From IMG/VR virus record IMGVR_UViG_3300027749_000055, positions 1 through 64,000 of that record: DNA of 64,000 nucleotides; one strand, given 5' to 3'. The position numbers were made by a program, and so were the translations under genes. This document shows, piece after piece, positions 1-63,514 of the stretch (position 1 is the first letter of the stretch; each line of letters starts with the position of its first letter). The notes under the pieces are model-generated. The model had not been told where the DNA came from, made no database searches, and saw only the letters and a list, made by a program, of their open reading frames with translations. The stretch comes from a virus.

Positions 1-304
1 GGTAGTGAAATAAAACTAGGGGGGGGGGTGGTGGCTATGTCTGTGTACCTGTCCCTGTGCGCCTGTGGCTCTGGGCTGTCGTTGTCCTGCACTCTGATAG
101 CACTTGTCCTATCAAGCCCTATGGGTAGGGGGGGTCTTGTCCTATGGGTGGGCTAGTTGTTTCACTACCCCTAGGGGATTGCTGTATCACTTGGTTCTAT
201 ACCTTGGGCGGTATGGGGTGGAGTAGTGGCTACCCCTCCCGCTATGCCCTGTGCCCTGTGTGTGTGGTTGTGTGCCCCTCTACCCTTGGAGGGTGGGGGA
301 TTGG

Positions 305-517: not shown

Positions 518-674
518 TAGTGCCGTCTTTGTGTTCGGGGAATAGCCCGCTTACAAAGACAGCCATTCCGCCGATTGACTCAATGAATTCGACTTCGCTG
601 GCTAGGGCTTCTTCAAGCCTTGCGAGGTTGGACGGGTGGCGCAACTTTGCCTGTGATTCTTCTTGCGTGTTCAT
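507..674 (-). CDS. hypothetical 55-aa protein (MNTQEESQAKLRHP...), below the ORF-track cutoff
   Basis: Translated by hand; ATG at 674 preceded by ATAGGAGGAACC RBS and a promoter at 708-724. Confidence 0.7.
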   Translation of the reverse strand: MNTQEESQAKLRHPSNLARLEEALASEVEFIESIGGMAVFVSGLFPEHKDGTNDK

Positions 675-707
675 TGGTTCCTCCTATGGTTAGACACTTC
701 TACTACG

Positions 708-724
708 AGTGTACCACAGTTGAG
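708..724 (-). promoter_or_regulatory. promoter with CTCAACTGTGG-TACACT motif
   Basis: Extended -10 preceded by the recurrent CAAC box. Confidence 0.6.
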
Positions 725-744
725 TAACAAGTGGTGGATAGATA

Positions 745-803
745 CAACAAAGCCCCCGCCGAAACGGGGACTTGTCGCACCAGAGAAAGGAGGAACCCTA
801 GTG
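745..803 (-). ncRNA. putative anti-SD small RNA 1
   Basis: TTGACG-N16-TAGTGT promoter (836-809); CACTAG/CTGGTG hairpin with loop GGTTCCTCCTTTCT; intrinsic terminator 772-745. Confidence 0.5.
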
Positions 804-842
804 GGACAACACTACGACGGTTTGCTCATACGTCAATAAGTG

Positions 843-1592: not shown

Positions 1593-2197
1593 TGGATAAG
1601 TGTATGAACTTGGTTGGCTGGCATTGTGTATATGGGCATTTCGGCGTAACGATTCCAACTGGTTTGCTCAAAGCCTTCGTGTTCCCAGAATCCTACCGAT
1701 GTGAGTTCTGGTTCGAACGCAATGCCGAGGTTCTGGCTAGAGGCGACCTTGGCTACTTCGCCTAGTAAAGCCTTGCCTACTCCGCTTGTGGTGTGGGTTG
1801 AGCCGATGTAATGAATGTAGAGTTCCTTTAGTCGGGGTTGAATCATCGTTGCGCCGACAGTCTTGCCTTCCGTATCCTTGGCTACCAGAATGGATACGGG
1901 GGCGTCTGGGTGTTCGTATTCTTCCTTCTCAAAGAGGGATAGGGCGGCGTAGGTCATACGGTATCCGAGCCATAGTTCGTGCTGGCTGGGGTCGGTTGGT
2001 TCTCCCTTGGGGAGTATGTCTATGCCTTGCGCCTTGGCTTGGTCAAGAACGCTTGATTGAGCGTCTCGGATTGCTTCTTCGTCTGTTAGGGGAGTAATCG
2101 AGCCTGTGAACTGCTTAGAGCCTTTGGGGTATCTTCCTGAACCTTCCCCACCTTTGGTAAAGGGGAGTAAAAGTGCGTCGGTGCTAAAGCGGTTCAT
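1589..2197 (-). CDS. leader/KGG-motif protein with GNAT acetyltransferase domain
   Basis: Start re-called at MNRFSTDALLLPFTK|GGEGSGRY; GNAT motif A (SGVGKALL) and FWEHEGF. Confidence 0.8.
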   Translation of the reverse strand: MNRFSTDALLLPFTKGGEGSGRYPKGSKQFTGSITPLTDEEAIRDAQSSVLDQAKAQGIDILPKGEPTDPSQHELWLGYRMTYAALSLFEKEEYEHPDAPVSILVAKDTEGKTVGATMIQPRLKELYIHYIGSTHTTSGVGKALLGEVAKVASSQNLGIAFEPELTSVGFWEHEGFEQTSWNRYAEMPIYTMPANQVHTLIQ

Positions 2198-2214
2198 AGG
2201 TATTTGGTTCCAAT

Positions 2215-5085: not shown

Positions 5086-7871
5086 AGCGGTTCCAATTCT
5101 ACAAGAACGTAATTGTTCAAACGGCGATTGTAATTTGTCCATTCTGGCATAGTGGGGTCTTCGGAGAGGGGTGCGTAGGGAACGTCTTTGGTGACGCTGA
5201 CGACCTTGAACGAAGATTCGGGAATTAGCCACTCCGCTTGGTATTTAAAATCCTCTATTGCGTAGGGTTCGGCGTTTACGCCCCGTGCGCCTTGTGGAAT
5301 GTGGAAAACGATGTAATTGTCGCCTCGGTTTCCCATAGGGCTGTTATCGGAAGCGAATTGTTCGCCCACCAACTTCTTGCGTGACCAACTCGAAAACGGC
5401 AACTTGACGGTTTCGCCTACTTGTAGCGACTTTATTAACTTGGGGTAGTCCTCGACGTCTACGTTAATCCCACGCCACAGTTCGGGGGCTTCTTTGTTGG
5501 CTCGCTTGGCAATTTCTTCCAATTCCTCCCGACTAGGGGAGCCCCACCCGTCGCAATTTTCTGTCCACGCTTCAATGGCTTGTTGCTCGGCTTGGGTAAG
5601 GTCGCTCTCCTTGTGCCGACCACTGCCCGGCCCGCCCTTGGTGACTTTAGAAGAAGGCGTGGTGAACGATATGCCAAGTTTGGTCAATGCCTTTACCTGC
5701 GCTGGTGTTGGCTCACCGTCAAACTCCACTCGCTCTATGTCCTTTAGGGATACGCCACCGTGAATCTGCGCCTCGACGTAGGTGTCCAACTTGGCGGAAC
5801 CGTTTTCTATCTCTTTCAACGTGGCGATTGCGTCGTTGTATATACGACTTGCCATTCCGTAGTTATGAAACATTCGAGGCGAGACAAAACCTGACGGTTG
5901 TGGGTCGGTGGCGGACAAGGGGTGATTCGTCCGCCCTAGAATCTTGTCGGTTGTTTTGTGAGCACCGTACATATCGAGGCTGTCTCCAATGGTGACGGTT
6001 GTTCTGTTCTTGACGGAATCTTTGAGAACAAACTTCACTCCGCCATACATAGTGGGGTCGGCTTCGCTTCCCTTGTGGTCTATGTATCCATAGACGGGGT
6101 GCTTACTATCAGGCTCACCCTTCAAACCGAAGAGGACATTTTCGGCTGAATATCTTTGGTATTCACCTTTTTTGCCCCAATATTTGCGTTCCGAAGTTTT
6201 AGATTCGTAGCCATTGAGGATTTTTCCGCTTTGGAGTATTTGGTCAAGGTTTTTTTCGGGAACTCGGATAGAGACGGGGTTCTCGGCAACAAAAGTCTTG
6301 ATTGCCTTAGCCGCTTCTTTTTGGTAGTCCTCTAGCGACCTGTAGCCGAGTTCGGAAAGTGCCTCTAACCCATTCTTTTGATTTTCTTCTCTAGCAGTAG
6401 CCGTGTATTGGAGGGCGTTCCGTCCTGCTTTGGCTCGCAACTTCTGGTTGGCACTTTCCAATCGAGCATTTAGGTCAGTTTCGTTTGACCTACTTGACCC
6501 CTTGTGCCGACCGGAACCAGGCCCGCCTTTGGAAATAGGGGCGATGACGTTCCAGCGGGGGAAATTCTCCTTCATCAAGTCCACGACGGGCGGGGGCGTG
6601 TCGGAGGTCATAATGGCACGGTTCGTTGCCATAGCGTAAGTCTCTGCCACGAACTCGGCGGGGTTTTTTGAGCCGTATTCAGTCATACCCGCTTCTTGAA
6701 GCATTTGGCGTTCGATTTGGTTAAATCCGCCCGTGTAATCCCATACGCCCTTGCCAAAATGGTTGCGCTCGGTGTATTGAATTTCACTGAATCGTTCCTT
6801 CCAATACGCCTCCGACGTCATTTCGTAATACGAATCCCGTTCTTCTTCCGTCAGGTATTCCTGACGGTTCCAAAACTCGTTGCCCTCAATGGCGAGTTCT
6901 GCCATTCCACTAAGCACGGGAACCAACTTGTCGAGGTTCTTTGTGTCCCAATGGAATCCTTCGTCTCGTCCGTCCTGCGCTTTGTCGCTGTAAGAAATTT
7001 CCATATCCCGCTCGAAGGCGTAGTGTCCGAGTTCGTGGGCAATCGTGTTGAAGGCGACTTCGGCTGAGTTGGTGCTAATACCGCCGACTTGGTAGTGGGT
7101 ATAGTCATACTCACGGGTGCTACTAAACGGGGAAAAATGGTCGGGTTGTTCGCCCCCCATAGCCGTTTCAATGTCGTGTCGGACTACGCCCTTGTAGATA
7201 CCCTTGTCGGGAATCAAAATCTGGTGCTGATAGCCAGAATCGGGGCGAGTTCCCGCCGCCATTCCGAGGTTGTTCTCGTAATAGGCGACTGCCGTTCTAC
7301 CACCAAAGTTGCTATTAGAAAAAAACAGTTGTATTCCGCCCTCTGGGTTCAGTTGGTCGAGCGCACTGACGATTTCACTACTTTCTTGGTCAGACGGACT
7401 CCACGCCTCGGAATTGCCCTCTGAATCCTTCGACCACTCCACTTGAACTGCGTTGTCCTTGCTGGTCAAGTAGTTGAGTATGTAATTGTCGGTTGGTTCG
7501 CCCGTCGAGCCATTCAGCACTCGGTCACTGCCAACAAATTTCCAATCCTTCGGCGTTTCCCACGAACAACCGTCGGGGAGACTGCCTGATTCGGGGTGTC
7601 TGCCGGAACCAGGCCCGCCCTTTTTGACCCGTTTTTCCTCTTTCTCCCGTTTTTCCTCTTCACCCAACATCTGAAAAAAATTTACGAACGACTGAATCTT
7701 GTATCGGTCAGCACGGAATCGGTGTCCGGCTTCGATTTCTTCTTGGGCGTGGCGTAGTGCCTCTGCCATTTGTTGTGAGTTCTTGCGCTCTTTGTCTGAT
7801 TGACGAGCGGGCTGGGCGGTTTCGTGCCCTTTTACACCACTACCGACTCCACCTTTGGAAACAGGACGCAT
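5082..7871 (-). CDS. polyprotein: short module, zincin metallopeptidase, DUF3626-like, ADP-ribosyltransferase, separated by KGGxGSG linkers
   Basis: HELGH...EYGSKNPAEFVAE; PVYG...YG...RTTVTIGDS...YVEAQIHGG; WRG...SSWS...QAEW. Confidence 0.8.
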   Translation of the reverse strand: MRPVSKGGVGSGVKGHETAQPARQSDKERKNSQQMAEALRHAQEEIEAGHRFRADRYKIQSFVNFFQMLGEEEKREKEEKRVKKGGPGSGRHPESGSLPDGCSWETPKDWKFVGSDRVLNGSTGEPTDNYILNYLTSKDNAVQVEWSKDSEGNSEAWSPSDQESSEIVSALDQLNPEGGIQLFFSNSNFGGRTAVAYYENNLGMAAGTRPDSGYQHQILIPDKGIYKGVVRHDIETAMGGEQPDHFSPFSSTREYDYTHYQVGGISTNSAEVAFNTIAHELGHYAFERDMEISYSDKAQDGRDEGFHWDTKNLDKLVPVLSGMAELAIEGNEFWNRQEYLTEEERDSYYEMTSEAYWKERFSEIQYTERNHFGKGVWDYTGGFNQIERQMLQEAGMTEYGSKNPAEFVAETYAMATNRAIMTSDTPPPVVDLMKENFPRWNVIAPISKGGPGSGRHKGSSRSNETDLNARLESANQKLRAKAGRNALQYTATAREENQKNGLEALSELGYRSLEDYQKEAAKAIKTFVAENPVSIRVPEKNLDQILQSGKILNGYESKTSERKYWGKKGEYQRYSAENVLFGLKGEPDSKHPVYGYIDHKGSEADPTMYGGVKFVLKDSVKNRTTVTIGDSLDMYGAHKTTDKILGRTNHPLSATDPQPSGFVSPRMFHNYGMASRIYNDAIATLKEIENGSAKLDTYVEAQIHGGVSLKDIERVEFDGEPTPAQVKALTKLGISFTTPSSKVTKGGPGSGRHKESDLTQAEQQAIEAWTENCDGWGSPSREELEEIAKRANKEAPELWRGINVDVEDYPKLIKSLQVGETVKLPFSSWSRKKLVGEQFASDNSPMGNRGDNYIVFHIPQGARGVNAEPYAIEDFKYQAEWLIPESSFKVVSVTKDVPYAPLSEDPTMPEWTNYNRRLNNYVLVELEPL

Positions 7872-7881
7872 TAACCCTCAC

Positions 7882-9618
7882 TTACGCCGAGGTGGTCTTG
7901 AAAATGCCCTTGTCAGACGACCAACCGTATCCTTCGGGAAGCAGGTAGTCACCAATGACGATATTGAAGTTAGCGTCGTTTGTCCACTCGGAGTCCCGTG
8001 CTGTCCGCATAAATTCACGGTCAATCGGTTCTCTAGAAATCTGTCGTGCTGGCTCACCCTGAATCTTGTCCAAGTTCCTAGCACCCGTGAAGTCAGCACC
8101 GACAAGGTTTGCACCTTCAATGTTGGCAAATGCAAGGTCAGCACCGTTGAAGATTGTTTCTGCTTGGTCACGTCTACCGTCAAGTTTTACTTTTGCAAAG
8201 TTGGCATTGGTGAGGTTAGCGTCAATGAATTTGCCACCAATCTCACGACCAGCGAAGTTCACATTGGAAAGATTTGCACCAGAGAAGTCTGCCTTCAACT
8301 CACCACGATAATCTGCCGTGAAGCCCTTGTCATTTACCTTGGGGTCGGCAAATGTTGAGCCACTTAGGTCAGCCATAGCGAACGACGGTAGTTTCATTCC
8401 GTAGGAGTTTGCCTCAAAACCACGCAAGTCGGCATTTCGCAAATCGGCACTTTCAAAGGTGGTGTTCCTTATGTCGGTTCCACCAATTCCCTTAGCGGAA
8501 GCGGCGGTTCGCACCCCTTGAAGATTCGCCCCGTCAAACGAAGCCCTAAAAGGCTTCATTCGTGCAAGGTTCGCACCGGAGAGGTCAGCGTCTTGGAAGT
8601 TTGCCCCCTCCAACTTTGCCCCCGACAAATTGGCATTGACCAAAGTTGCGTTGGAAAAATTGGCTTGTTCGGCGTTTACCTTCGTCAAGTTTGCGTCGGT
8701 AAGGTCTGCGCCTCGGAAACTACCCAATGGGACATACGCCTTAGTGAAATTAGTGCCAATAAGTTTTGCGCCGCTGAAGTCGCTCTCCTTGCCACGTTGT
8801 TCGGTGAAATCCTTGCCGGAAATGTCTTGTCCGGCAAAATCAGCCCTGATGTGCAAATCGCCAGCGACCCGTGCGGTGCTGAAGGTGTCGCTCGTCCATT
8901 CGACGGGTGCGGTGGGGAAACAGTGGGTGCAAAGCGTTGAGCCACCTTGGGCAACGGCTTCTTCTTCGGTCAAACCAGAAAAACGAGGCAACCATACAAA
9001 AGAAGTAGGGGTTATGCCGTTATTGCAAGAATGGCACTCCATTGACGAGTGAATGTGACCGTCTTGAACTCCAAAGTATCGGTTCCAACCCTCATAGTGG
9101 GAGTCGGCTTCCTCATAAACGGCACGGGCGGTGTCACGGGCTTCCTTGGTCTTTTCAAGTTCCGCCATAGATTTATCAAAATCTTCTTTGTAGTTGCGAG
9201 GCGACCCATACTGATTCTTTTCGGGAAACTCACCAAACTTGCCAGCGAGCCGTGCTTCGATAAGTTGGAACGCCTTTGGGTTCACCATTTGCTCGCCCGT
9301 GACGGTGGTGTAGACAGTCCGTTGTTGCTTGCCGTAGCCCTCCTTCTTTACTTCTACGCCTTGCTTTGCATACATAGCGGCACGTTCCTCGGCAACCATT
9401 TTGTCTGCAACCGTTCCCTGAAACTTGTAATACTTCTCGGCAATGTCGGTGTCTATACGCACCATTTCTTCACGGTCAGTGATTTTGCCGTTGGTGTTCA
9501 CTCCGGCGGGGTAACGACCTGTCCCCTCAGGGTGACGACCCGAACCAGGCCCACCTTTAGCAACGGGGTAGTTGCTCAACGGGCGCAACAGTTCTGAGGT
9601 TGAGAACGGGGTCTTCAT
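7882..9618 (-). CDS. leader/KGG-motif protein with Cys/His zinc domain and pentapeptide repeats
   Basis: MKTPFSTSELLRPLSNYPVAK|GGPGSGRH; GHIHSSMECHSC...LCTHCFP; many A(N/D)(L/F)xx pentapeptides. Confidence 0.85.
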   Translation of the reverse strand: MKTPFSTSELLRPLSNYPVAKGGPGSGRHPEGTGRYPAGVNTNGKITDREEMVRIDTDIAEKYYKFQGTVADKMVAEERAAMYAKQGVEVKKEGYGKQQRTVYTTVTGEQMVNPKAFQLIEARLAGKFGEFPEKNQYGSPRNYKEDFDKSMAELEKTKEARDTARAVYEEADSHYEGWNRYFGVQDGHIHSSMECHSCNNGITPTSFVWLPRFSGLTEEEAVAQGGSTLCTHCFPTAPVEWTSDTFSTARVAGDLHIRADFAGQDISGKDFTEQRGKESDFSGAKLIGTNFTKAYVPLGSFRGADLTDANLTKVNAEQANFSNATLVNANLSGAKLEGANFQDADLSGANLARMKPFRASFDGANLQGVRTAASAKGIGGTDIRNTTFESADLRNADLRGFEANSYGMKLPSFAMADLSGSTFADPKVNDKGFTADYRGELKADFSGANLSNVNFAGREIGGKFIDANLTNANFAKVKLDGRRDQAETIFNGADLAFANIEGANLVGADFTGARNLDKIQGEPARQISREPIDREFMRTARDSEWTNDANFNIVIGDYLLPEGYGWSSDKGIFKTTSA

Positions 9619-9648
9619 AGCCCCTAGATTACACCAGCGATTTTGAAT

Positions 9649-9777
9649 TTAGTCGCAGCAAGAATCCCGCCACCCACACTTGCGACACTTGAAGTGGGCG
9701 TGTTCGGGGGTGAGTTCAGAACCACAATGCGGGCACTCGGTGAAACAGGCAAGCGAATTATTTGTTCTTTCGGTCAC
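9649..9777 (-). CDS. CPxCG-type zinc-ribbon microprotein (42 aa)
   Basis: Hand translation ...ECPHCGSELTPEHAHFKCRKCGWRDSCCD*; GTG start. Confidence 0.65.
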   Translation of the reverse strand: MTERTNNSLACFTECPHCGSELTPEHAHFKCRKCGWRDSCCD

Positions 9778-9982
9778 GAAACCACTTCACCAAGTTGCGG
9801 GAGTAAACAATACCGTAGAAGAGTCCGAAAAAATCAAAGCCGTATTGGTGGCTAACGACTCCGTAGATAAGCCACAAGCACAAATTGAATAATACAACTA
9901 GCCAACTCCACCAATACTTACGTCCAATTAGAAACGAACCGCAGACACCGATTCCCTCTAGAACCCACGACCACAGTTGCAT
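9758..9982 (-). CDS. PnuC-like small membrane protein
   Basis: 3 TM segments; GRKYWWSW...QYGF pattern. Confidence 0.6.
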   Translation of the reverse strand: MQLWSWVLEGIGVCGSFLIGRKYWWSWLVVLFNLCLWLIYGVVSHQYGFDFFGLFYGIVYSRNLVKWFRDRKNK

Positions 9983-10726
9983 TTAGTAGTCGTAGTCGTA
10001 ATCGTCGTAATCGTCGGGTTCCCTAAAGTTGTCGTCTTCTCGACTCTCTTCTGCGTAATCTGTTGCCCTTCCTTCAATCCAAGAGTCAGAGTAGCCTTTT
10101 CCGCCGCCCGTGTAAGCAAAGTGCAACGCTTGTCCAGCCGTGCAGATTGGAACTCGCTCGCCCTTGGTGTTGTCTCCGAAGACCCAACTGTTAGGGGTAA
10201 GTTCCTTTGGTGCGTCTTCTTCCTTGCCCGATTGAGAAAAAGAAAAGTTGGTAAAACCCTTAATCAACGACTCGGCTCGAACCGCATAAGCACCTTTGGT
10301 TTCGTATTTTCCGTCATTGGCAAGGTCGGTCATAATGCTGTTGATTTTGTCGGGCAAAGAAAACTTGTAGTCCACCCGTGCTGTGCGCTCGTCGTCTAAG
10401 AAAACTTCGTAGTCATCGACCTCCACGTCTCCGGCGGGATACATAGTGTATGCGTCGTAGTTTTCGTCCTTGTTGGGGTCAAGGTAGCCCCTGCGCTCGT
10501 TGCTTGAAAACTCGTAATACTCCACATTGCCGTTGTTTTCCTTGACGGTTTGAACTGCCGGTATGGGCATCTTGCGACCAATTGCTTGACGGTAGCGAGA
10601 CAACTCGCTGTTTGCTTCAATTCTGAAGTCTTCCTTGTGGCGACCACTGCCCGGCCCGCCTTTGACGACGGGGTAGGTGCTGGCGTTCGGTAGCAGTGCG
10701 TCAGTTGAGAATGGGTTGTTGCTCAT
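9983..10726 (-). CDS. leader/KGG-motif acidic protein
   Basis: MSNNPFSTDALL...VVK|GGPGSGRH; D/E/Y-rich, ends DDYDDYDYDY. Confidence 0.8.
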   Translation of the reverse strand: MSNNPFSTDALLPNASTYPVVKGGPGSGRHKEDFRIEANSELSRYRQAIGRKMPIPAVQTVKENNGNVEYYEFSSNERRGYLDPNKDENYDAYTMYPAGDVEVDDYEVFLDDERTARVDYKFSLPDKINSIMTDLANDGKYETKGAYAVRAESLIKGFTNFSFSQSGKEEDAPKELTPNSWVFGDNTKGERVPICTAGQALHFAYTGGGKGYSDSWIEGRATDYAEESREDDNFREPDDYDDYDYDY

Positions 10727-13849: not shown

Positions 13850-14272
13850 TTATTTCAAGTCGAGTGTTGCAAAACGACAGAGCGACAGGGGAATCTCCAC
13901 AAAATCTTCTTCGCTTGTGTAGATTGTGCGCTTCTTCACAATCTTGGCGGTAGTGAAATCTTCTCCCCGCACCGCAAGAAAACGGGTTCGCTCGTCATTG
14001 AGCATAAGAAAATGATGGTTTGGCAAGGCAAACTTCAGTTTTCGGGCGGCAAAGTGAACGGCAGAGTACGGAAATGTATTTCCCTTCCAACTGTGCTTGA
14101 CTTCGACTTCCCAGCCAAACGTTTTACCACCACGGGTTCCGAGTAGGTCAATGCCGTAATCGTCGGGATTTACCCACGCTTCGTAGCCTTTGACTTCGAG
14201 CCACGCAATCACTTGGTGCTTTGCCCCGTCATCAGCCTCATACAGCGAAGGACTGAAGGGCTTGGAAACCAT
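13850..14272 (-). CDS. PD-(D/E)xK-type nuclease-like protein
   Basis: YGIDL...EVEVK motif. Confidence 0.65.
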   Translation of the reverse strand: MVSKPFSPSLYEADDGAKHQVIAWLEVKGYEAWVNPDDYGIDLLGTRGGKTFGWEVEVKHSWKGNTFPYSAVHFAARKLKFALPNHHFLMLNDERTRFLAVRGEDFTTAKIVKKRTIYTSEEDFVEIPLSLCRFATLDLK

Positions 14273-14321
14273 TTTGCCACACTACCACGGTTGGTGACTG
14301 CGTGTTGTAATTACGTCGTTG

Positions 14322-15515
14322 TTATTCCGCTACAACCGCAGTAATTGGGATACCGAGACGGTGCAGGGCTTCGTTGGGCATTTCGACACCCTCGACCCAC
14401 TCTTCGTAAATGCTCTCTGGGGCGGAAAAACCGTAATCGCCCACCTTGAATTTTACCTTTGGTTGCTTGGGCGTGGATTCACGACCTTCCAAAACCTCAG
14501 TGAAATCTTCGTCGTCAAAGCCCGTGCCCTCCAGCGAATCAAGGCTCTTTAGAACGCTACCGAGTAGGTCGTTGTCGTAGGTTGCTTTGTCCGCCGTGCG
14601 GTTATCCGCTAGAACAATTTTGGCAGCCGCCACTTCGTCCACGTCCACCCAAACCACAGCAATTTCTGTCCACCCAAGGGCTGAGGCGGCGGCGGCGGTA
14701 TGGTTGCCCTTCAAAATCTCGTTGGTGCGTCGGTTTACAACTACGGGGCGATACTGCCCCAAAACCCGCAAAGACTCGCTCACAGCCCCTATATCGCCCT
14801 CACGGGGGTTCTTGTGGTATCGGCGTAGTTCCGAGAGGGGGACAAGTTCTGTGGCTTCCAGCGTGTATTCAGCGGGTTTAGAGGTCTTTGCTTCCTTGGC
14901 TTCCTTGGGCTTTGGCGGGCGAGGTTCCTTGGGAACGTCAAGTCGTGCCCGCAGTTCCTTGTTGATGGCGGCTTTTTTGTCCCCCACAACCTCGATAATG
15001 GAGTTCAACCAGATTTCGTGGAGTTCGTGGTCGAGTTGCGCCCGCCACGCCCCAATGCGAATTGGAACATTGAGGTTCTCGATTTCGTCGGTTTCGTTTT
15101 TGGGCTGGGAAACGCCTCCGCCGGACGATTCGGACTCAGATTCCAATTCTTCCAGTATTGACGGGTCGTAGCCAGTTCCTTCGAGGTCGGGCAGTTCCCG
15201 CAAAAGGTCAATCAGGTATTGGTTGTTGTAGGTGGCAATGTCCGAAGTGCGGTTGTCGGTAATAAGTACCCGCAGAGCGTCACTTTCCGAGCCTTCGTAG
15301 CGAGTAATGGCGACTTCCTTCCAGCCCAACGACTTTGCCGCCTTCCAAGTGTGCGTTCCGGCAATGATTATGTCGTTCCACACAACCACGGGTGAGTATT
15401 GCCCATTGACGGTGAGTGATTCGGCAATCGCCGCCACGTCGCCCATACGGGGGTTTGAGGGGTGGGGCTTGATTGAGTCAATGGCGACTTTTTCCGCCCG
15501 AACGTTGATAGCCAT
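14322..15515 (-). CDS. protein with two tandem ParB/Srx-like domains
   Basis: Two copies of NPRxGD..A..ESL...GQY.PVVV...G(T/N)HT..AA..LGW.E...DNRT. Confidence 0.85.
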   Translation of the reverse strand: MAINVRAEKVAIDSIKPHPSNPRMGDVAAIAESLTVNGQYSPVVVWNDIIIAGTHTWKAAKSLGWKEVAITRYEGSESDALRVLITDNRTSDIATYNNQYLIDLLRELPDLEGTGYDPSILEELESESESSGGGVSQPKNETDEIENLNVPIRIGAWRAQLDHELHEIWLNSIIEVVGDKKAAINKELRARLDVPKEPRPPKPKEAKEAKTSKPAEYTLEATELVPLSELRRYHKNPREGDIGAVSESLRVLGQYRPVVVNRRTNEILKGNHTAAAASALGWTEIAVVWVDVDEVAAAKIVLADNRTADKATYDNDLLGSVLKSLDSLEGTGFDDEDFTEVLEGRESTPKQPKVKFKVGDYGFSAPESIYEEWVEGVEMPNEALHRLGIPITAVVAE

Positions 15516-15539
15516 ACAGCAAGGCTACCCCCCTTAGAT

Positions 15540-15610
15540 AAAAAAGAGGGGTGGCACGACAACGAGATAGGAGGAACCTATTGCGTGTCTGTTTGCCCCG
15601 CTGCCGTGCC
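15540..15610 (-). ncRNA. putative anti-SD small RNA 2
   Basis: TTGCAG-N17-TACACT promoter (15645-15617); 14-bp stem 15610-15597/15566-15553 enclosing GGTTCCTCCTAT; T-tract end. Confidence 0.55.
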
Positions 15611-15657
15611 GATAACAGTGTATCAGGGTTGAGTACCAACTGCAAGTTATTTATTAG

Positions 15658-15729
15658 CACGGGGGCAAGGACTCGAACCCTGAATGGCAGAGCCAAAATC
15701 TGCTGTGTTGCCAATTACACCACCCCCGT
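15658..15729 (-). tRNA. tRNA-Gln (TTG)
   Basis: Cloverleaf: ACGGGGG/CCCCCGT acceptor, GCAGA-TTTTGGC-TCTGC anticodon arm, GGTTCGAGTCC T-arm. Confidence 0.9.
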
Positions 15730-15751
15730 AAGGCTTGTTCAGTGTATCGCC

Positions 15752-16717
15752 TTAGCGACGGGGGTAATTGGATAATGAACGAAGAAGGTCGTCGGTAAAA
15801 AAGGACTTTTTGGTGTCTTGCGGAACGGTTGTGATTTCCTGCAGTTTCACGCCCTTCTCCTTGTCCCACGTCAAGCCCAACTTCACGGCGTTATCCCACG
15901 TCGTGTTGATTTCGTAGACCGGCAGACGCATTGAGGGGTTCAAAATGTGCATTGCGATAGCCGCAGCCCAATTGTGGTGTCCGTCGAGAACGTGACCGTC
16001 CGAGGTGACAAGGATTCGCTGGTCGTCGGGGTAGCCACCCTTCTTCAAATACGATTCCAAAATTCCACCAGCCTTACGCCCGTTGATTTCTTTCTGAATA
16101 GGCTTTAGGTCTTCGGGGTTCACTTCTTTTTTAGTGAAAGTAATGCCGTGCTTGTCGCCCAGCCATTTCAAAAACTCAGGACGCTCGTTTGATTCAATTT
16201 GTGGCATTTTGATTCGGGCAAAGCCCTTGCCATTGTGTCCAATGAGATATGTGCCCATAAGACGCAGTTCGGTAATGTCGAGCGGTGACTTTCCGCCGAG
16301 GTGCGCCATTGCTTTGATAATGTCGGGAAATGACGTGCGTGTAATTTCGGGGTCACGACCACGCCTCAATGCACGGGCGATATTGGAAGCCATTTCCTTT
16401 ATTTCTTCGGGCGTTTTACCAGCCGTTGTGTGTGGGCCGTGTTCCGGTTGCTTGCGATTAGCGGGAGTTTTGGAATTCGGATTGGTCTTCGGTGCTTTAA
16501 GTCCGTTTCTACTAGCGGGGGCAGGCTTGGGCTTTGCCTCCGTTTTCGGTTGAGGCATTTCCTCACGGGTGGACTGATAACGGTCTTCGGAAACTTGATT
16601 ACGGGCTGGGTCGGATTGACGCTCAGGTTGAGCCGTGGTGTGCCCCTTGACACCAGACCCCTCGCCACCCTTGGCGACGTGCGACAAAAGACTGTCGATA
16701 GAGAATGGCGTTTTCAT
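15752..16717 (-). CDS. leader/KGG-motif protein with ParB/Srx-like domain
   Basis: Start re-called at MKTPFSIDSLLSHVAK|GGEGSG; LKPIQ...ILVTSDGHVLDGHHNW. Confidence 0.8.
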   Translation of the reverse strand: MKTPFSIDSLLSHVAKGGEGSGVKGHTTAQPERQSDPARNQVSEDRYQSTREEMPQPKTEAKPKPAPASRNGLKAPKTNPNSKTPANRKQPEHGPHTTAGKTPEEIKEMASNIARALRRGRDPEITRTSFPDIIKAMAHLGGKSPLDITELRLMGTYLIGHNGKGFARIKMPQIESNERPEFLKWLGDKHGITFTKKEVNPEDLKPIQKEINGRKAGGILESYLKKGGYPDDQRILVTSDGHVLDGHHNWAAAIAMHILNPSMRLPVYEINTTWDNAVKLGLTWDKEKGVKLQEITTVPQDTKKSFFTDDLLRSLSNYPRR

Positions 16718-16755
16718 ACCCCCAAGGATACAGAACGATTTTTGAAATCCAATTG

Positions 16756-16828
16756 TGGAGAGTAAGGGACTCGAACCCTTGACCCCCTGCTTGCAAAGCA
16801 GGTGTTCTACCAACTGAACTAACTCCCC
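16756..16828 (-). tRNA. tRNA-Ala (TGC)
   Basis: GGGGAGT acceptor, CCTGC-TTTGCAA-GCAGG anticodon arm, GGTTCGAGTCC T-arm. Confidence 0.92.
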
Positions 16829-16985: not shown

Positions 16986-19469
16986 TTATTGCGCCATTCC
17001 TCGCTGAGCAAGCGCAACAAGAAGGTCGCCCAACAATGAGTTGTCTTCTTGCTCGTCGTCGTCCGAGCCGTCAATGGCACGGTTCACGATTCCCCGCTTG
17101 CGCTCGATAAGAGCCGCAATGTCTTCGTCAATCGTGTTCTGCGTGAGCATTAGCCAACCCGTCACGGAGTCTGTCTGACCGATACGGTGGCAACGGTCTA
17201 CCGCTTGTTCCATATCGGCGGGAGTCCAACCTTGCTCGATAAACAGCACGTCGCTCGCTGCAGTCAGGGTCAGACCAACGCCAGCCGCCTTGATTTGGCA
17301 GGCGATTACCTTCTGGTCGTCTGACTGTTGAAATGCGTCCACGGCTTCCTGACGCTTCTTCATAGACACGCCACCCTGAATCTTGCAATTGCCCGCAAAG
17401 TTATCGGCAACCATATCCACGACTTCCGTGTGCCAACCAAAGACAACCAACTTTTTGTCCTGAGCAAGAAAATCCCGAATCCATTGCTCAGCCGCCTTCA
17501 TCTTCGCCTTGGCTGCGAGTTGCTTTAACGTCGAAATAGAAACAAGGTGTTCTGCGCCACGGGCACGAAGGGCACGTTGCCACGCTTCGTTCTGCGCTTC
17601 CTTGTCGGACGCACCGGACTCACGGGCAATGCGAAGAGCCTCTTCCGAGAGATACTTCACAATGTCGGCTTCCGCCTTCTTGTATTCCTTCATAATGTTC
17701 TTGTCGCCCTCAACGAGAACTTCAGACCACATCTTCGGGGGCAACTCGGTCAGCACGTCAGCCTTGCGACGGCGAACGTAACAGGTCGCACGGAGTTTGC
17801 GATTGAGCGAGGCAAGGGTGCGAGCGTTTGAGCGTCCGTAGGCGTTGCGGAATTGCGACGACCCACCGAAATCGCCCAAGCGGTTCAGCACTTTCAACTG
17901 CGTCATTAGTTCAAGGGGTTGGTTTACGATTGCCGTTCCCGATAGGCAGATACGAACGCCGTCGTCCGTCACTTTCTCGGAAAGCGAGATACACGCCTTG
18001 GCACGAATCGTGCTTCCGTTTTTGATGTAGTGGCTCTCGTCCAAGACCAAGCCCCTGATGTTGCCAAACTTGGAATACCAATGGTCGAGAATGTCGTAGT
18101 TCACGACGTAGATGTCAGCGTCGGGGAGGTTTCCGGACGTGCCCGACAGCACAGCGACCCGAACGCCGTCAATCCACCTCTCAGCCTCTCGCTTCCAATT
18201 TATTTTGAGCGAAGCGGGAACGACCACGACTGCGGGAAAAGCGTTAGCCGCTTTGAGAACGCCCAAGCCCTGCGGGGTCTTGCCTAATCCCATTTCGTCG
18301 CCAATCAGAACGCCCTCATTACCTTCACGAACCTTGGTGAACTTGCCGTCGGCATACTCAAAGCCCATAGCCCGCATTGCATAGCGAACGCCCGCACGTT
18401 GGTAGGGAAACAGTTGAAGGTTGGGCTTACCAAACCCTTCAATAATCAACTCAGCGTCGCTGGCGGACGACGAGGCAATAATGTCTCGAACGTCAGCGGC
18501 TTCTTGGAGAAGAGCCATTGCGTCGGGGGTGACGACAGCCTCTTGCAGTGTTACAAAAGCCAGCACTTCGTCGGCGGCTTCGATTGGAACAAGCCACGCT
18601 CGCTTTGACGGATTCCACGACGAACCAGGCATTTGCCTAACGAGCGAAATGGTCTGAGCGTCGTAAGGGAATGAAAGCGCAAAGTTACGTTCGTGAACGC
18701 TGACGACTGAGCCGTTGCCCATATCAACGTCGGGCAAATCCTTCACTTCGTCGGTGAGGGTGATGTTGTATTCCTCGGCAATCTTGCGGACAAAACCCAC
18801 ACATTCCTTGGAGACAATCCACAACTTTTTTGCGCTATCCCAACGGCGATTGGGAATCGTGCGAACTGCGTCCACAATGTTCGGGTTGTAGTCGAAGCGA
18901 AGGGCGATTGACCCCTCTAAGATGAAGGCGTGACCGGCTGGCTCGGCGGGATTAGCGGACGTGTCTACCTCGTTGAGAATCGCCGTTGCACGTTCAGTGA
19001 TTGGAATGTTGTAGCGACCAGCCCAAGTGACGACTGAGCCATACTTCGCCACGCTGACTTGCCAGCCTCGAAGGTCACGATTCCAAATCGCACCCAAGCC
19101 GGACTTCGGATAGGCAATGTCGCCGTAGGGCAAGAAAACCAGCACCTTGCCACCACGAACGTCAATGCAACGAATGTCGTCTGCACCACGGGCTTCCGGT
19201 GGTTCGGGAATGGCGGTGTAGTCAATTCCGCTCTTAGACAACTGACCCTGATACTTGTGAAGCATTGTCCACGCCTTGCGCTGAAGGGCTGGTGTCCACA
19301 CTTCGGGCGGGGTGCTGGCAAGTTTCTTGCCAAACTTCGAATCAGTGCCGTTGAAACCTTGACCGTCGCTAGACGACGCACCGTCGCAACGGGCGGCTAT
19401 CGCTTGGATAGCGGAAACGAGAATGGGATTTGGTGTGTGAGCGGTGGTTTGCTCTAGAGTCATAGTCAT
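16986..19469 (-). CDS. SNF2/SMARCAL1(HARP)-like helicase
   Basis: GDEMGLGKT, DESH, LSGT, QAVDRCHRIGQ; N-terminal repeated HARP-like W-rich units. Confidence 0.9.
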   Translation of the reverse strand: MTMTLEQTTAHTPNPILVSAIQAIAARCDGASSSDGQGFNGTDSKFGKKLASTPPEVWTPALQRKAWTMLHKYQGQLSKSGIDYTAIPEPPEARGADDIRCIDVRGGKVLVFLPYGDIAYPKSGLGAIWNRDLRGWQVSVAKYGSVVTWAGRYNIPITERATAILNEVDTSANPAEPAGHAFILEGSIALRFDYNPNIVDAVRTIPNRRWDSAKKLWIVSKECVGFVRKIAEEYNITLTDEVKDLPDVDMGNGSVVSVHERNFALSFPYDAQTISLVRQMPGSSWNPSKRAWLVPIEAADEVLAFVTLQEAVVTPDAMALLQEAADVRDIIASSSASDAELIIEGFGKPNLQLFPYQRAGVRYAMRAMGFEYADGKFTKVREGNEGVLIGDEMGLGKTPQGLGVLKAANAFPAVVVVPASLKINWKREAERWIDGVRVAVLSGTSGNLPDADIYVVNYDILDHWYSKFGNIRGLVLDESHYIKNGSTIRAKACISLSEKVTDDGVRICLSGTAIVNQPLELMTQLKVLNRLGDFGGSSQFRNAYGRSNARTLASLNRKLRATCYVRRRKADVLTELPPKMWSEVLVEGDKNIMKEYKKAEADIVKYLSEEALRIARESGASDKEAQNEAWQRALRARGAEHLVSISTLKQLAAKAKMKAAEQWIRDFLAQDKKLVVFGWHTEVVDMVADNFAGNCKIQGGVSMKKRQEAVDAFQQSDDQKVIACQIKAAGVGLTLTAASDVLFIEQGWTPADMEQAVDRCHRIGQTDSVTGWLMLTQNTIDEDIAALIERKRGIVNRAIDGSDDDEQEDNSLLGDLLVALAQRGMAQ

Positions 19470-19553
19470 ACCCATACTTTACCACGGTTGAGAGGCAGAA
19501 TCTAGTTATTTTGGGCGGTTACAAGAGATTTCTTATAACCTAGGCGGAATTGC

Positions 19554-20913: not shown

Positions 20914-21432
20914 TTAGATTGAGCCTCGCATACTTGTTCCAAAATCGTTGATTTGACGCATTACAGAGCCCCAAGCACAGTTGTAGTGGCGACCTTCGAT
21001 ACTGCCGTCGGCGTTGCGGGCAAAGTCCTTTTTAGACGGAATCCAAGTGACCTTCACATAGGAGTCAGGCTTGCTCTCTCCCTCGGCTGGCTCGCTCATC
21101 TTTTTTGCACAAACTTTGCAAACAACCTTGTCTATGTCGGGCGAACCCGCTGCCAACTCGACAGTTTGAGCGTTGCGAAGTCGAAGTTTGGAAAACGCTG
21201 TCTTGATAGCGGCGAGCGTGTCGCCAACTTGAATCTTGTGCCACTCCGAGTTGAGGTTGGAACGGAAGACACCGTTACGTCCAGCAACGTAGTCGTGGGT
21301 GTGAGCGTCGGGCATATGCTTACCCGCAATTTGGCTACTGCCAGCGGGGTAACGCCCCGAACCCGGCCCACCTTTAGTCAGCGGGAAGAAATGCTCGTTG
21401 ATGAGATTTTCGGTGGAAAACGGGTTCGTCAT
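20914..21432 (-). CDS. leader/KGG-motif protein of unknown function
   Basis: Start re-called at MTNPFSTENLINEHFFPLTK|GGPGSGRY; CKVC...HYNC. Confidence 0.75.
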   Translation of the reverse strand: MTNPFSTENLINEHFFPLTKGGPGSGRYPAGSSQIAGKHMPDAHTHDYVAGRNGVFRSNLNSEWHKIQVGDTLAAIKTAFSKLRLRNAQTVELAAGSPDIDKVVCKVCAKKMSEPAEGESKPDSYVKVTWIPSKKDFARNADGSIEGRHYNCAWGSVMRQINDFGTSMRGSI

Positions 21433-23307: not shown

Positions 23308-23880
23308 TTACTGCAGAGTGTTGTTGGCGTTCGACAAGGCGTTCGACAGGTTCTCAATGTCTTTGCCAACCGCCGAACTTGCGTCGATGAAGCCCTGCGT
23401 CACGTCGCCACCGTTCTGAATGTTCGAGATTGACGTAATGCCCTCAAACGAAAGCGTCTGAACATCGTTTGCCAATTGTTGAACTACCTGAGTGGTTGTC
23501 ACGTCGGGCGAGATTGAGTCAGAGTCCAAGTTCGTAGCGTCCTGCCCCAGCGTTGCGAGGTCAGAGGTAGCCGCAGAAGCGTCGTTGTTGTTCAGGTCGG
23601 CAAGCGTGGTGGTGTAGTCCGAACGGAACTGCGAGAAAAGGGGCTGAAAGTTTGCTTTCCAATCAGACCACTGCGACGAGAGGCTCTGCGTCGTAGGGGT
23701 GGTGTCCTGAGTCGAGGGCGTGTTGTTGCTATTTCCATTGTTGTTACCACCGCTCGCACCGGCGATAATCAAAACCACCACAACGACGGCAACGCCAATA
23801 GCAATCTTGGCGTTCTTACTCAGGGTGTTCCAGCCCGACTTCGGTTCAGCCGTCGGGGTGGGGGTTGGGGTTGCTTCCAT
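23308..23880 (-). CDS. membrane-anchored extracytoplasmic protein
   Basis: Single TM, N/T-rich linker, helical domain; AAGGAGGAAC RBS; own promoter near 23927-23942. Confidence 0.7.
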   Translation of the reverse strand: MEATPTPTPTAEPKSGWNTLSKNAKIAIGVAVVVVVLIIAGASGGNNNGNSNNTPSTQDTTPTTQSLSSQWSDWKANFQPLFSQFRSDYTTTLADLNNNDASAATSDLATLGQDATNLDSDSISPDVTTTQVVQQLANDVQTLSFEGITSISNIQNGGDVTQGFIDASSAVGKDIENLSNALSNANNTLQ

Positions 23881-23900
23881 TGTCTGTTCCTCCTTGGGAA

Positions 23901-24437
23901 TCAGTCGCCTTGTGGCGCACTGAGAGACTCTACCACAGTTGATTTGAGAAGCGCAACATTTCCTGATTCAAGGGCAAATCCCTTGCTTGCGATAATTTGC
24001 TGGTCGGACTTGTTTTTGAGTTGTTCATACATTTTGTTGAACTGCGCTCGAACCGTCGTGATGTTATCCGTCTGGCAGATGTGCCAGTAACCCAATGCCT
24101 TGACGGTTTGACGAATCAAATCGTGCGACCAAGGGGGGCGAGCCTCAAACTGATAAACGCCGTAGCGTTCAGCCACGTCCTGCACTTCAACCCACGCCTC
24201 GGCCGGAGACGGGGCAAGAAATCCTTGTAACTCGGCGGACTTTTTGCGGAGAGCCGCCACACTCGGCGGACGTTCTTCGGTCAAAATCCATTGCGTCGCC
24301 GCTTTATGAATTACGGTGGCGGGAATGTCCTGCAGTGCCCTGTGAAATACCAGCACGGTTTCCTTGGGCGCACTCCACGACGGATATGCGCCTGCGATAA
24401 TAGCCATCACCTCGGCTGTCTCTTGCGGTGTGGTCAC
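23901..24437 (-). CDS. helicase loader/inhibitor (G39P-like)
   Basis: MT..ET..VM.II.GAYP...PPSVA...EAW; directly follows the initiator. Confidence 0.7.
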   Translation of the reverse strand: MTTPQETAEVMAIIAGAYPSWSAPKETVLVFHRALQDIPATVIHKAATQWILTEERPPSVAALRKKSAELQGFLAPSPAEAWVEVQDVAERYGVYQFEARPPWSHDLIRQTVKALGYWHICQTDNITTVRAQFNKMYEQLKNKSDQQIIASKGFALESGNVALLKSTVVESLSAPQGD

Positions 24438-26381: not shown

Positions 26382-26390
26382 GTCAAGAAA

Positions 26391-26456
26391 CCGTGGAACC
26401 CCCGTTTAGTAGTTTCCCTTGTACCGTGGAACCCCCGTTTAGTAGTTTCCCTTGTA
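26391..26456. repeat. perfect 33-bp tandem duplication
   Basis: ccgtggaacccccgtttagtagtttcccttgta x2. Confidence 0.95.
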
Positions 26457-62973: not shown

Positions 62974-63088
62974 AACGCACACGATAGCAGGACGGTGCGA
63001 CAAGGTATTGAAACCCTTACAAATATTGGGCTTTCAAAAGTTAGATAAATAACTTGCGTCTGTTACTCAACTGTGGTAGAGTATTAGA

Positions 63089-63243
63089 AGAACTAAAGAA
63101 CCACCCTGCGAAGGCGGGGAGGTGAGCCCGAACACCTTGCAGGGTGGGTCGGGAAGTTGTGAGCGAGACGGTTAGCCCTAGGAAACGGGAACTCCGGTAA
63201 GTAGCACAACGCAGAAGCCTCACCTTCGGGTGGGGCTTTTTTG
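63089..63243 (+). ncRNA. orphan structured ncRNA
   Basis: TTGCGT-N17-TAGAGT promoter (63054-63082); stems 63100-63148 and 63156-63210; terminator 63216-63243. Confidence 0.6.
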
Positions 63244-63244
63244 T

Positions 63245-63514
63245 TTACAGGGTGACTAAGCCGTTGTAGCGACGAGCCTTGCGGAAAATACGGTTGATTT
63301 TCTCCGCCGTCTTCATAGCCATAAGCAGGTCACGGACGGTCAGCGAGAAGTCGTAAAAGGGAACGCCCAGCCCGCCCTCAATGTAGTCGTAGCGAATCAA
63401 CCGCAGTTGTGCGTGGTCTTTGTCCGAGTAAACGACATACTTGTATTGACCGTCACGGGCTTCGAGGACGTTAGGGTCAGTTGTCTTCCATTCCAAAGCA
63501 GGACGGCGCAACAC
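63245..63514 (-). CDS. hypothetical protein
   Basis: ORF; start uncertain. Confidence 0.55.
   Translation of the reverse strand: MLRRPALEWKTTDPNVLEARDGQYKYVVYSDKDHAQLRLIRYDYIEGGLGVPFYDFSLTVRDLLMAMKTAEKINRIFRKARRYNGLVTL

What the first reader, a model, noticed from the sequence alone, without database searches (positions are those of the whole stretch)
15540..15645. Small RNA 2 carries the same GGUUCCUCCU seed in a different scaffold
Seen: the predicted start (15610) coincides with a 14-bp stem whose G-U pairs work only on the minus strand. It encloses AUAGGUUCCUCCUAU and is followed by a U-tract. GGUUCCUCCUAU is a 12-nt perfect complement of the RBS of gene 507-674 (676-687), which heads the HicA-like operon. 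Two independent intergenic RNAs with one seed argue against chance. It could act as an antitoxin-like or early-to-late switch RNA.
Basis: partly seen in the sequence, partly recalled or inferred. Interest (0 to 1): 0.75.

Follow-up and report, generated by a model that had tools for sequence, protein, structure and literature searches.

The report
Strain-specific phage promoter-hairpin cassette
Between a tRNA gene and a ParB-like gene, this uncultured 114-kb lake phage carries a 101-base promoter-plus-hairpin insert that its closest known relative lacks; the hairpin tip is a backwards copy of the phage's own ribosome-binding site, so a translation-blocking small RNA is possible but unproven.

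Summary
On the minus strand, a promoter (15645-15617) places the RNA start at 15610, the first base of a 14-bp stem with 3 G-U pairs. The stem encloses AUAGG/UUCCU/CCUAU. A U6 run follows, 7 nt after the stem.

The seed is less special than claimed. GGUUCCUCCU is the reverse complement of the phage's standard strong ribosome-binding site, AGGAGGAACC. That site has 7 copies in the genome, and 5 sit directly before real genes. The two backwards copies resemble each other no more than real sites resemble one another.

The promoter is real by sequence: an 8-member family against 0.55 expected by chance. Only this copy and the one at 63.1 kb are followed by strongly folded RNA without a reading frame.

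The whole 101-nt unit (15553-15653) is missing from the closest relative (ParB 95% identical). The ParB-like gene has its own conserved -10 element for a leaderless mRNA.

Best reading (about 0.45): a recombination-borne promoter/stem-loop cassette that acts locally. Main rival (about 0.3): a class-wide anti-Shine-Dalgarno small RNA. An RNA antitoxin for the HicA-like operon is unsupported.

Earlier notes of this scan report anti-SD RNAs in other phages.

The parts
15657..15729 (-). tRNA-Gln (UUG), immediately upstream of the cassette on the minus strand
   Evidence: ARAGORN; Rfam tRNA, 57.5 bits
15553..15653 (-). 101-nt strain-specific cassette (promoter plus hairpin). It is present here and absent from the closest relative, L002/L212, whose flanks are 91-94% identical
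   Evidence: Pairwise alignment; blastn blocks; L212 sequence
15617..15645 (-). Sigma-70-type promoter: -35 TTGCAG (15645-15640), conserved CTCAAC in the spacer (15633-15628), TGa, and -10 TACACT (15622-15617)
   Evidence: The motif CTCAAC-N4-7-TAnAnT occurs 8 times in the genome against 0.55 in shuffles. The sibling at 63.1 kb is conserved in L115
15610..15610 (-). Inferred transcription start: a G, 7 nt after the -10 hexamer and the first base of the stem
   Evidence: Geometry read from the sequence; not shown experimentally
15553..15610 (-). 58-nt hairpin: a 14-bp outer stem with 3 G-U pairs, a 2-bp helix, and an inner arm AUAGG/UUCCU/CCUAU
   Evidence: RNAfold dG -28.9, z -4.3; among the 8 promoters z -4.0, one of only two with a structured start
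15567..15581 (-). Inverted copy of the phage's ribosome-binding module. It reads AUAGGUUCCUCCUAU on the RNA and ATAGGAGGAACCTAT on the plus strand, where a TTG follows at SD spacing
15527..15552 (-). Second hairpin ACCCCUCUU / AAGGGGGGU, which contains the U6 run (15545-15540). Its 3' arm ends at the first base of the ParB -10 element. Part of this stretch is shared with L002
   Evidence: Folds; alignment
15522..15527 (-). -10-like TAGCCT, 6 nt before the ParB ATG: the gene's own promoter, giving a leaderless mRNA
   Evidence: GTAGnnT lies 6-9 nt before the ATG in the window and in all 25 relatives compared. Genome-wide, TAnnnT is enriched at spacings 6-7
14322..15515 (-). ParB-like nuclease-domain protein gene (397 aa), downstream of the cassette
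   Evidence: Pfam ParB_N E 3.9e-9; phrog_8071 E 2.3e-88
745..806 (-). The other minus-strand hairpin showing the same motif (loop UUCCUCCUUU, 797-788), followed by a terminator hairpin (773-750)
   Evidence: Folds; terminator scan. In read-through RNA the motif pairs with the SD at 685-676
676..687 (-). Ribosome-binding site AUAGGAGGAACC of gene 507-674, the proposed target, driven by promoter 730-706
   Evidence: The SD is unpaired in the promoter-proximal transcript
63054..63246 (+). Sibling promoter (shares ATAAATAACTTGC and CTCAAC) driving a ~158-nt ORF-less structured RNA that ends in a canonical terminator

Best explanation
**What it is.** The region is a 101-nt promoter-plus-stem-loop cassette. 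It was gained here, or lost in the sister strain, by recombination between the phage's repeated promoter modules. It sits between tRNA-Gln and the ParB-like gene.

**How it most likely works.** Host RNA polymerase starts at about 15610 from a sigma-70-type promoter of the phage's CTCAAC family. The RNA begins with a very stable 58-nt hairpin that leaves no free 5' end, and it carries no reading frame. Its effect is probably local. It adds a structured, stable, non-coding transcript in front of the ParB-like gene. Together with the U-run, it may attenuate or insulate transcription arriving from the tRNA operon, ahead of the ParB gene's own leaderless promoter.

**The CCUCC tip.** On this reading, the tip is inherited from an inverted copy of the phage's standard ribosome-binding module and has no demonstrated role in trans.

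**Shown versus inferred.** Shown: the anatomy, the promoter family, the fold, the presence/absence difference, and the leaderless signature. Inferred: transcription, the start point, attenuation, and the recombinational origin.
For: - **Presence/absence.** The closest relative, L002/L212, has ParB 95% identical and flanks 91-94% identical. It has only 23 nt between tRNA-Gln and the conserved GTAGCCT...ATG, so the 101-nt unit is missing.
- **No copy elsewhere.** Nothing similar was found in 5 related records, including a complete 121-kb genome, or in exact scans of viral and metagenome collections.
- **Promoter family.** 8 copies against 0.55 expected; four are followed by AGGAGGAAC(C).
- **Shuffling signature.** At the sibling promoter, L115 has a membrane-protein gene between two promoter copies, while the window has one copy and no gene. 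This is the pattern described for T4-type PeSL cassettes (PMC2839356).
- **Inverted ribosome-binding copy.** Alignment scores of the backwards copies against real sites (20-25) equal those among real sites (21-28).
- **No cis partner.** There is no AGGAGG on the minus strand between 9344 and 20535.
- **ParB's own promoter.** The ParB-like gene keeps its own -10 element 6 nt before the ATG.
Against: - A purely local or neutral role does not explain why an exact 10-nt inverse of the consensus ribosome-binding site sits at the tip of a minus-strand-specific hairpin, nor why a second such hairpin exists at 788-797.
- The hairpin is not a canonical terminator: a 7-nt gap separates the stem from the U-run, and the scan did not flag it. 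Attenuation is therefore unproven.
- Only the promoter is repeated in the genome; the hairpin is unique.
- Whether the difference is a gain or a loss is unknown, because no outgroup shares this junction.
Confidence: 0.45

Rival explanations
1. Trans-acting anti-Shine-Dalgarno small RNA. The promoter makes a short stable RNA whose tip (UUCCUCC, within GGUUCCUCCU) pairs with the AGGAGGAACC ribosome-binding sites of a class of promoter-proximal phage genes: 507-674, 26558, 47060, 89975, 94517 and near-matches. This lowers their translation, while the phage's leaderless mRNAs are unaffected. It would be a class-wide switch, not a HicA-specific antitoxin.
For: - The promoter family is real and the start falls at the stem base.
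- Only this promoter and the 63.1-kb one are followed by structured, ORF-less RNA (z -4.0 and -4.8, against +0.4 to -1.3 for the other six).
- The ParB-like gene has its own leaderless promoter.
- A second hairpin (788-797) shows the motif fully unpaired and has a terminator.
- The genome has two translation classes: 23 leaderless-type genes and 32 SD-type genes among 109.
- Opening the seed costs only 3.3 kcal/mol.
Against: - The element is absent from the closest relative, and nothing similar was found anywhere else searched.
- There is no canonical terminator.
- CCUAU of the seed is paired.
- The proposed target does not stand out from genome background in duplex energy.
- Any CCUCC RNA is complementary to any SD.
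- No expression data exist.
Confidence: 0.3
2. Plus-strand translation start. ATAGGAGGAACC-TA-TTG (15567-15583) is a working ribosome-binding site for a 64-aa plus-strand ORF (15581-15775).
For: The SD-to-start spacing of 6 nt matches that of real genes (4-8 nt), and the frame stays open for 64 codons. The other backwards copy also has a GTG at 7 nt.
Against: - The ORF runs antisense through tRNA-Gln and has no Pfam match.
- Its start and SD are missing in L002.
- The two backwards copies would encode unrelated peptides (12 and 64 aa).
- No plus-strand promoter of either type lies upstream.
- The stem's G-U pairs favour the minus strand.
Confidence: 0.05
3. Terminator or processing hairpin for the upstream tRNA operon. 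The hairpin ends or trims transcripts coming through tRNA-Ala, the 331-aa gene and tRNA-Gln, with the promoter merely adjacent.
For: The hairpin lies 46 nt after the tRNA 3' end, is strong, and a U-run follows. The phage's other intergenic terminators are also large structures.
Against: A 7-nt spacer precedes the U-run, and the scan did not flag it. The sister strain does without it. This reading does not explain the anti-SD tip.
Confidence: 0.1
4. Antitoxin-like RNA specific to the 305-674 (HicA-like) operon.
For: There is a 12-nt perfect complement to the ribosome-binding site of gene 507-674. The 70-aa second gene has a HicA-family structural neighbour (TM 0.64).
Against: - The two extra matching bases (AU) beyond the shared 10-mer are a 1-in-16 event.
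- Four other genes carry the same 10-mer.
- The element lies 15 kb away from the operon.
- HicA systems use a protein antitoxin (established knowledge).
- Pfam and PDB sequence searches for HicA are negative.
- Blocking the first gene of the pair would more likely lower the presumed antitoxin.
Confidence: 0.05

Closest known systems
PeSL (promoter-early stem-loop) cassettes of T4-type phages (Arbiol et al. 2010, PMC2839356; Comeau et al. 2014, PMC4122927)
   Same: Both are intergenic composite units of a sigma-70-like promoter plus a stable stem-loop, which in PeSLs can lie downstream of the -10. Both are tied to insertions and deletions between closely related phages. The gene flanked by two promoter copies in L115, against one copy in the window, mirrors RB49 ORF192 against phi1.
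   Different: The phage group is unrelated and has actinobacterial-style TAnnnT promoters. Only the promoter is repeated; the hairpin is unique. The ribosome-binding site at the 3' end is inverted rather than functional. Terminator activity is not shown and looks non-canonical.
C-rich-loop anti-SD small RNAs of Gram-positive bacteria (RsaE/RoxS, S. aureus RNAIII, Listeria LhrC)
   Same: A short structured RNA with a C/U-rich motif at a hairpin tip that is complementary to G-rich ribosome-binding sites.
   Different: There is no Rfam match, no canonical terminator, and only one partly paired motif instead of several exposed ones. It is not conserved, and it is phage-borne.
Promoter-dependent translation through cis anti-SD pairing in phage T4 (gene e lysozyme, soc, gene 49, I-TevI). 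Recalled from the literature, not re-read here
   Same: At the companion site (797-788), the anti-SD lies upstream of an internal promoter and pairs with the next gene's SD only on read-through RNA.
   Different: At 15.6 kb the anti-SD lies downstream of the promoter and has no SD partner on the same transcript.
5'-terminal stem-loop mRNA stabilisers (E. coli ompA leader, B. subtilis aprE leader). Recalled from the literature
   Same: The stem starts at the first transcribed base and leaves no single-stranded 5' end.
   Different: The downstream gene appears to be translated from its own leaderless transcript, so there is no obvious mRNA to stabilise.

Membership tests
PeSL-type promoter/stem-loop cassette | Sigma-70-like promoter within an intergenic cassette | tested here: met
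   TTGCAG-N17-TACACT with TG extension. The family motif occurs 8 times against 0.55 expected. This is a sequence-level test only.
PeSL-type promoter/stem-loop cassette | Adjacent stable stem-loop | tested here: met
   dG -28.9 kcal/mol, z -4.3
PeSL-type promoter/stem-loop cassette | The whole ~100-bp motif, stem-loop included, is repeated at many intergenic sites | tested here: not met
   Only the promoter part recurs. The hairpin has no second copy in the genome.
PeSL-type promoter/stem-loop cassette | Functional Shine-Dalgarno and start codon at the 3' end of the cassette | tested here: not met
   The SD module is inverted, and the ParB-like gene is of the leaderless type.
PeSL-type promoter/stem-loop cassette | Marks insertions and deletions between closely related phages | tested here: met
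   The cassette is absent in L002/L212. A gene lies between two promoter copies in L115.
PeSL-type promoter/stem-loop cassette | The stem-loop terminates or attenuates transcription | not testable with these tools
   The consensus scan does not flag it, because the U-run starts 7 nt after the stem.
Trans-acting anti-SD small RNA (RsaE/RoxS/LhrC type) | Own promoter and Rho-independent terminator delimiting a short RNA | tested here: inconclusive
   The promoter is present. The terminator is not canonical.
Trans-acting anti-SD small RNA (RsaE/RoxS/LhrC type) | C-rich motif held unpaired in a loop | tested here: inconclusive
   UUCCU is unpaired (P 0.91-0.98), while CCUAU is paired (P unpaired about 0.12). 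Opening costs 3.3 kcal/mol.
Trans-acting anti-SD small RNA (RsaE/RoxS/LhrC type) | Conserved among relatives | tested here: not met
Trans-acting anti-SD small RNA (RsaE/RoxS/LhrC type) | Match to a curated RNA family | tested here: not met
   Rfam at gathering threshold and at E up to 10 gave only chance-level hits.
Intrinsic (Rho-independent) terminator | G+C-rich stem followed within 0-2 nt by a U-run | tested here: not met
   ACCCCUC separates the stem from U6.
RNA antitoxin (type I or III toxin-antitoxin system) | Encoded next to, or overlapping, its toxin gene, with extended complementarity or repeats that bind the toxin | tested here: not met
   It lies 15 kb from 305-674, the complement is 12 nt and generic to five genes, and there are no repeats.
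T4 gene e-type cis anti-SD control | Anti-SD and its SD partner lie on the same read-through transcript, with an internal promoter between them | tested here: not met
   No AGGAGG occurs on the minus strand between 9344 and 20535. The feature is met only at the companion site 797/685.

The most novel reading that the evidence does not exclude
The phage encodes a small set of RNAs that copy the ribosome's mRNA-docking tail: 745-806, 15553-15610 and perhaps the hairpin at genome 84.0 kb. These RNAs would cover the strong AGGAGGAACC-type ribosome-binding sites of its promoter-proximal genes, and perhaps host SDs. Translation would then shift to the roughly 20% of phage genes that are leaderless. 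This would be an RNA-based switch between two modes of translation initiation.
Probability: 0.15. Interest if true: 0.8.

Novelty: new variant of a known kind. Interest (0 to 1): 0.35.

Why it matters
If the local-cassette reading is right, promoter-mediated module shuffling, so far described for T4-type phages, also shapes an unrelated, uncultured freshwater phage lineage. It would also show how antisense regulators could arise from inverted copies of a ribosome-binding module.

If the rival is right, a phage would use an RNA copy of the anti-Shine-Dalgarno sequence to choose between SD-led and leaderless translation. That would be a new kind of temporal switch. As it stands, the element is a single-genome feature with no expression data.

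Tried and rejected
- **Known RNA family:** none found (Rfam).
- **Degenerate tRNA or minihelix:** ARAGORN finds only the two tRNAs. By eye there are no D or T arms.
- **N4-like hairpin promoter:** first suggested by the 3505-aa ORF, then dropped. The record is 113.6 kb and the promoters are sigma-70-like.
- **15-mer ATAGGTTCCTCCTAT in IMG/VR:** 86 stretches matched. By my rough estimate this is near chance level. None of the loci checked extends into the hairpin.
- **Exact scans for the hairpin arm, hairpin core and the companion core:** no match.
- **Target prediction by duplex energy:** the proposed target is not above genome background.
- **Relatives of terS and of the 70-aa HicA-like protein, to test conservation of the companion site:** terS relatives are distant, and their downstream regions are unrelated. 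No relatives of the 70-aa protein were found.
- **Host identification through the ParB-like protein in prokaryote genomes:** nothing found.
- **Target-site duplication or microhomology at the cassette borders:** none seen.

Full report
**Context.** The window is the first 64 kb of a 113.6-kb uncultured virus record. Nearly all genes near the finding are on the minus strand.

The order on that strand is as follows:
- SNF2 helicase (16986-19475)
- tRNA-Ala (16755-16828)
- a 331-aa protein of unknown function
- tRNA-Gln (15657-15729)
- the flagged region
- a 397-aa ParB-like nuclease-domain protein (14322-15515)
- further genes, including a dCMP deaminase

**The observation.** The minus-strand RNA from 15610 folds into one dominant structure (48% of the ensemble, -28.9 kcal/mol, z -4.3).
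- It has a 14-bp outer stem with three G-U pairs, a 2-bp helix, and an inner arm AUAGG/UUCCU/CCUAU.
- The plus strand cannot form the same stem and folds less well (z -2.3).
- A U6 run follows, but only after ACCCCUC. In the longer fold it is the 5' arm of a second hairpin, ACCCCUCUU/AAGGGGGGU.
- The terminator scan does not flag the site.
- GGTTCCTCCTAT at 676-687 is the exact complement and lies directly before the ATG of gene 507-674.

**What the seed is.** AGGAGGAACC occurs 7 times in the genome.
- Five copies sit 0-4 nt before the ATG or GTG of real genes: 507-674, 26558, 47060, 89975 and 94517.
- Close variants (AGGAGGAAC/A) precede about eight more genes.
- The motif is thus the phage's consensus strong ribosome-binding module.
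- The two remaining copies (788-797 and 15569-15578) lie on the plus strand inside minus-strand gene blocks, so the local sense RNA carries the inverse.
- Local alignment scores between these two, and between them and real sites (20-25), equal those among real sites (21-28).
- They are therefore inverted copies of the module and not a separate seed family.
- Each even keeps a start codon at SD spacing on the plus strand: GTG opening 12 codons, and TTG opening 64 codons antisense to tRNA-Gln.
- That plus-strand frame has no Pfam match and no plus-strand promoter upstream, and its start is missing in the sister strain.

**The promoter.** The sequence upstream of 15610 is TTGCAG-N17-TACACT, with TG before the -10 and CTCAAC in the spacer.
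- CTCAAC-N4-7-TAnAnT occurs 8 times in the genome against 0.55 in shuffles.
- Four copies lead to AGGAGGAAC(C) genes, and one leads to a gene with the related AAGGAGAAACC.
- One gives a leaderless SNF2 helicase mRNA.
- Two, this one and 63066 (+), are followed by RNA that is strongly structured (z -4.0 and -4.8, against +0.4 to -1.3 for the others) and has no reading frame.
- These two also share ATAAATAACTTGC upstream.
- The 63-kb promoter is conserved in contig L115. It drives a ~158-nt RNA ending in a textbook terminator.

Transcription from 15610 is therefore plausible, and this promoter type appears to drive at least one non-coding RNA.

**The downstream gene does not need this promoter.**
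- In the window and in all 25 relatives compared, the ParB-like ATG is preceded by GTAGnnT at 6-9 nt.
- Genome-wide, TAnnnT is enriched at exactly 6-7 nt before start codons: 13 and 10 genes, against 1-4 at other spacings.
- That makes 23 of 109 ORFs, only one of which also has an SD.
- This is the signature of leaderless mRNAs (established for Actinobacteria).
- It fits the ParB-like protein's best cultured matches, which are Arthrobacter, Mycobacterium and Gordonia phages.
- A 95-nt leader without an SD would not help translation of the ParB-like gene.

**Conservation.** The ParB-like protein retrieved 27 related loci (60-95% identity).
- Only L002 shares the tRNA-Gln/ParB junction. L212 shows the same junction sequence.
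- The flanks are 91-94% identical, but tRNA-Gln is followed by 23 nt and then GTAGCCTTACTGTATG. The 101 nt at 15553-15653 are absent.
- No similar sequence exists in five related records, one of them a complete 121-kb genome, or in exact scans of the viral and metagenome collections.
- The companion core at 788-797 is also unique.
- The regions downstream of terS in two relatives are unrelated.
- Relatives use AAAGGAGGAAA as a normal SD, and no backwards copies turned up there.

**Recombination signature.**
- L115 carries a 122-aa membrane-protein gene between two copies of the 63-kb promoter. The window has one copy and no gene.
- L002 differs from the window by three further block replacements at gene borders.
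- This is the pattern described for PeSL cassettes in T4-type phages: promoter plus stem-loop units that mediate insertion and deletion of small genes (PMC2839356).

**The companion site.**
- In RNA reading through from terS, both the minimum-energy and the centroid folds pair GGUUCCUCCU (797-788) with the SD of gene 507-674 (685-676).
- RNA started at promoter 730-706 leaves that SD free.
- This is the logic known for T4 lysozyme and soc (recalled knowledge). It explains that copy without a trans-acting RNA.
- A stand-alone 60-nt RNA from a TTGACG-N16-TAGTGT promoter remains possible.
- The 15.6-kb copy has no such partner: there is no AGGAGG on the minus strand between 9344 and 20535.

**Trans-target test.**
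- A duplex-energy scan of the whole genome with the 24-nt tip gives many sites at -22 to -27 kcal/mol. The 507-674 leader is not among the top 14.
- Opening UUCCUCCU costs 3.3 kcal/mol, against 0 for the companion RNA.

**Weighing.** Intergenic promoter/hairpin units are usually cis elements.
- Raising the odds of a trans role: the exact anti-SD at the tip, the sibling non-coding RNA, and ParB's own promoter.
- Lowering them: absence from the sister strain, the lack of a terminator, the half-paired seed and the generic target.
- My estimates are about 0.45 for a local or neutral recombination-borne cassette, 0.3 for a class-wide anti-SD small RNA, 0.1 for an operon terminator or processing hairpin, 0.05 for a plus-strand start, and 0.05 for the HicA-specific antitoxin idea.
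- The HicA label rests only on a structural neighbour. Sequence searches are negative.

**Earlier notes of this scan.**
- One note on this window describes the companion RNA at 745-836. I tested it partly.
- Several notes on other genomes report conserved phage RNAs with anti-SD loops. I took from them the comparison with C-rich-loop small RNAs. They are unchecked notes and do not count as evidence here.

Noticed in passing
window 63054-63246 (+): A promoter (TTGCGT-N17-TAGAGT) is followed by a ~158-nt ORF-less structured RNA that ends in a canonical terminator. It is about 95% identical in L115. Four of six changed pairs keep pairing, including one G-C to A-U double change. The first hairpin's loop shows the SD-like GGAGGUGA. 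There is no Rfam match. This is a better small-RNA candidate than the flagged one.
   Followed up: partly
window 655-850 (-): The anti-SD at 797-788 pairs in cis with the SD of gene 507-674 on read-through RNA from terS. RNA from the internal promoter (730-706) leaves the SD free. This resembles promoter-dependent translation of T4 lysozyme.
   Followed up: partly
whole genome, e.g. window 3-11, 20903, 21903; genome 113298-113526: The 9-mer TAGTGAAAT occurs 35 times (fewer than 1 expected) on both strands, inside and outside genes. Five copies cluster next to G/C runs at the record's end and one lies at its start. It also lies just upstream of the ParB-like gene in many relatives. Its function is unknown; it may be a protein-binding or packaging site.
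   Followed up: no
whole genome; e.g. window 15513-15527, 14270-14290, 19469-19492: Leaderless-mRNA signature: TAnnnT lies 6-7 nt before the start codon in 23 of 109 ORFs of 90 aa or more, nearly exclusive of SD-led genes. This suggests an actinobacterial-type host and two translation classes.
   Followed up: partly
L207:1480-1640 (-) = genome 83979-84139: A large terminator-like structure (17-bp outer stem plus U-run, z -5.6) contains a sub-hairpin GGAAAG/CUUUCC with loop UUACCUC. This is a third intergenic CCUCC tip on the sense strand.
   Followed up: partly
window 305-517 (-): This 70-aa protein has no Pfam or PDB sequence match, but its nearest structural cluster in the ESM Atlas is a HicA toxin family (TM 0.64). 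No relatives were found in IMG/VR.
   Followed up: partly
window 2127-10676, 21347-21388, 23877-23903: DNA repeat families D1, D3, D7 and D8 (CCACTGCCCGGCCCGCCTTTGG and variants) are in-frame copies of a K-GG-x-GSG-R peptide tag within several large minus-strand ORFs. Other first-stage notes on this genome flagged the same tag.
   Followed up: no
window 26390-26455: A perfect 33-nt tandem duplication (ACCGTGGAACCCCCGTTTAGTAGTTTCCCTTGT x2) lies in the divergent intergenic region upstream of gene 26558.
   Followed up: no
window 13952-14298 versus L002: A 347-nt block just after the ParB-like gene, including the start of the 140-aa ORF with its own leaderless-type promoter, is absent from the sister contig. 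The sister contig in turn carries about 860 nt with no counterpart at that position in the window.
   Followed up: no
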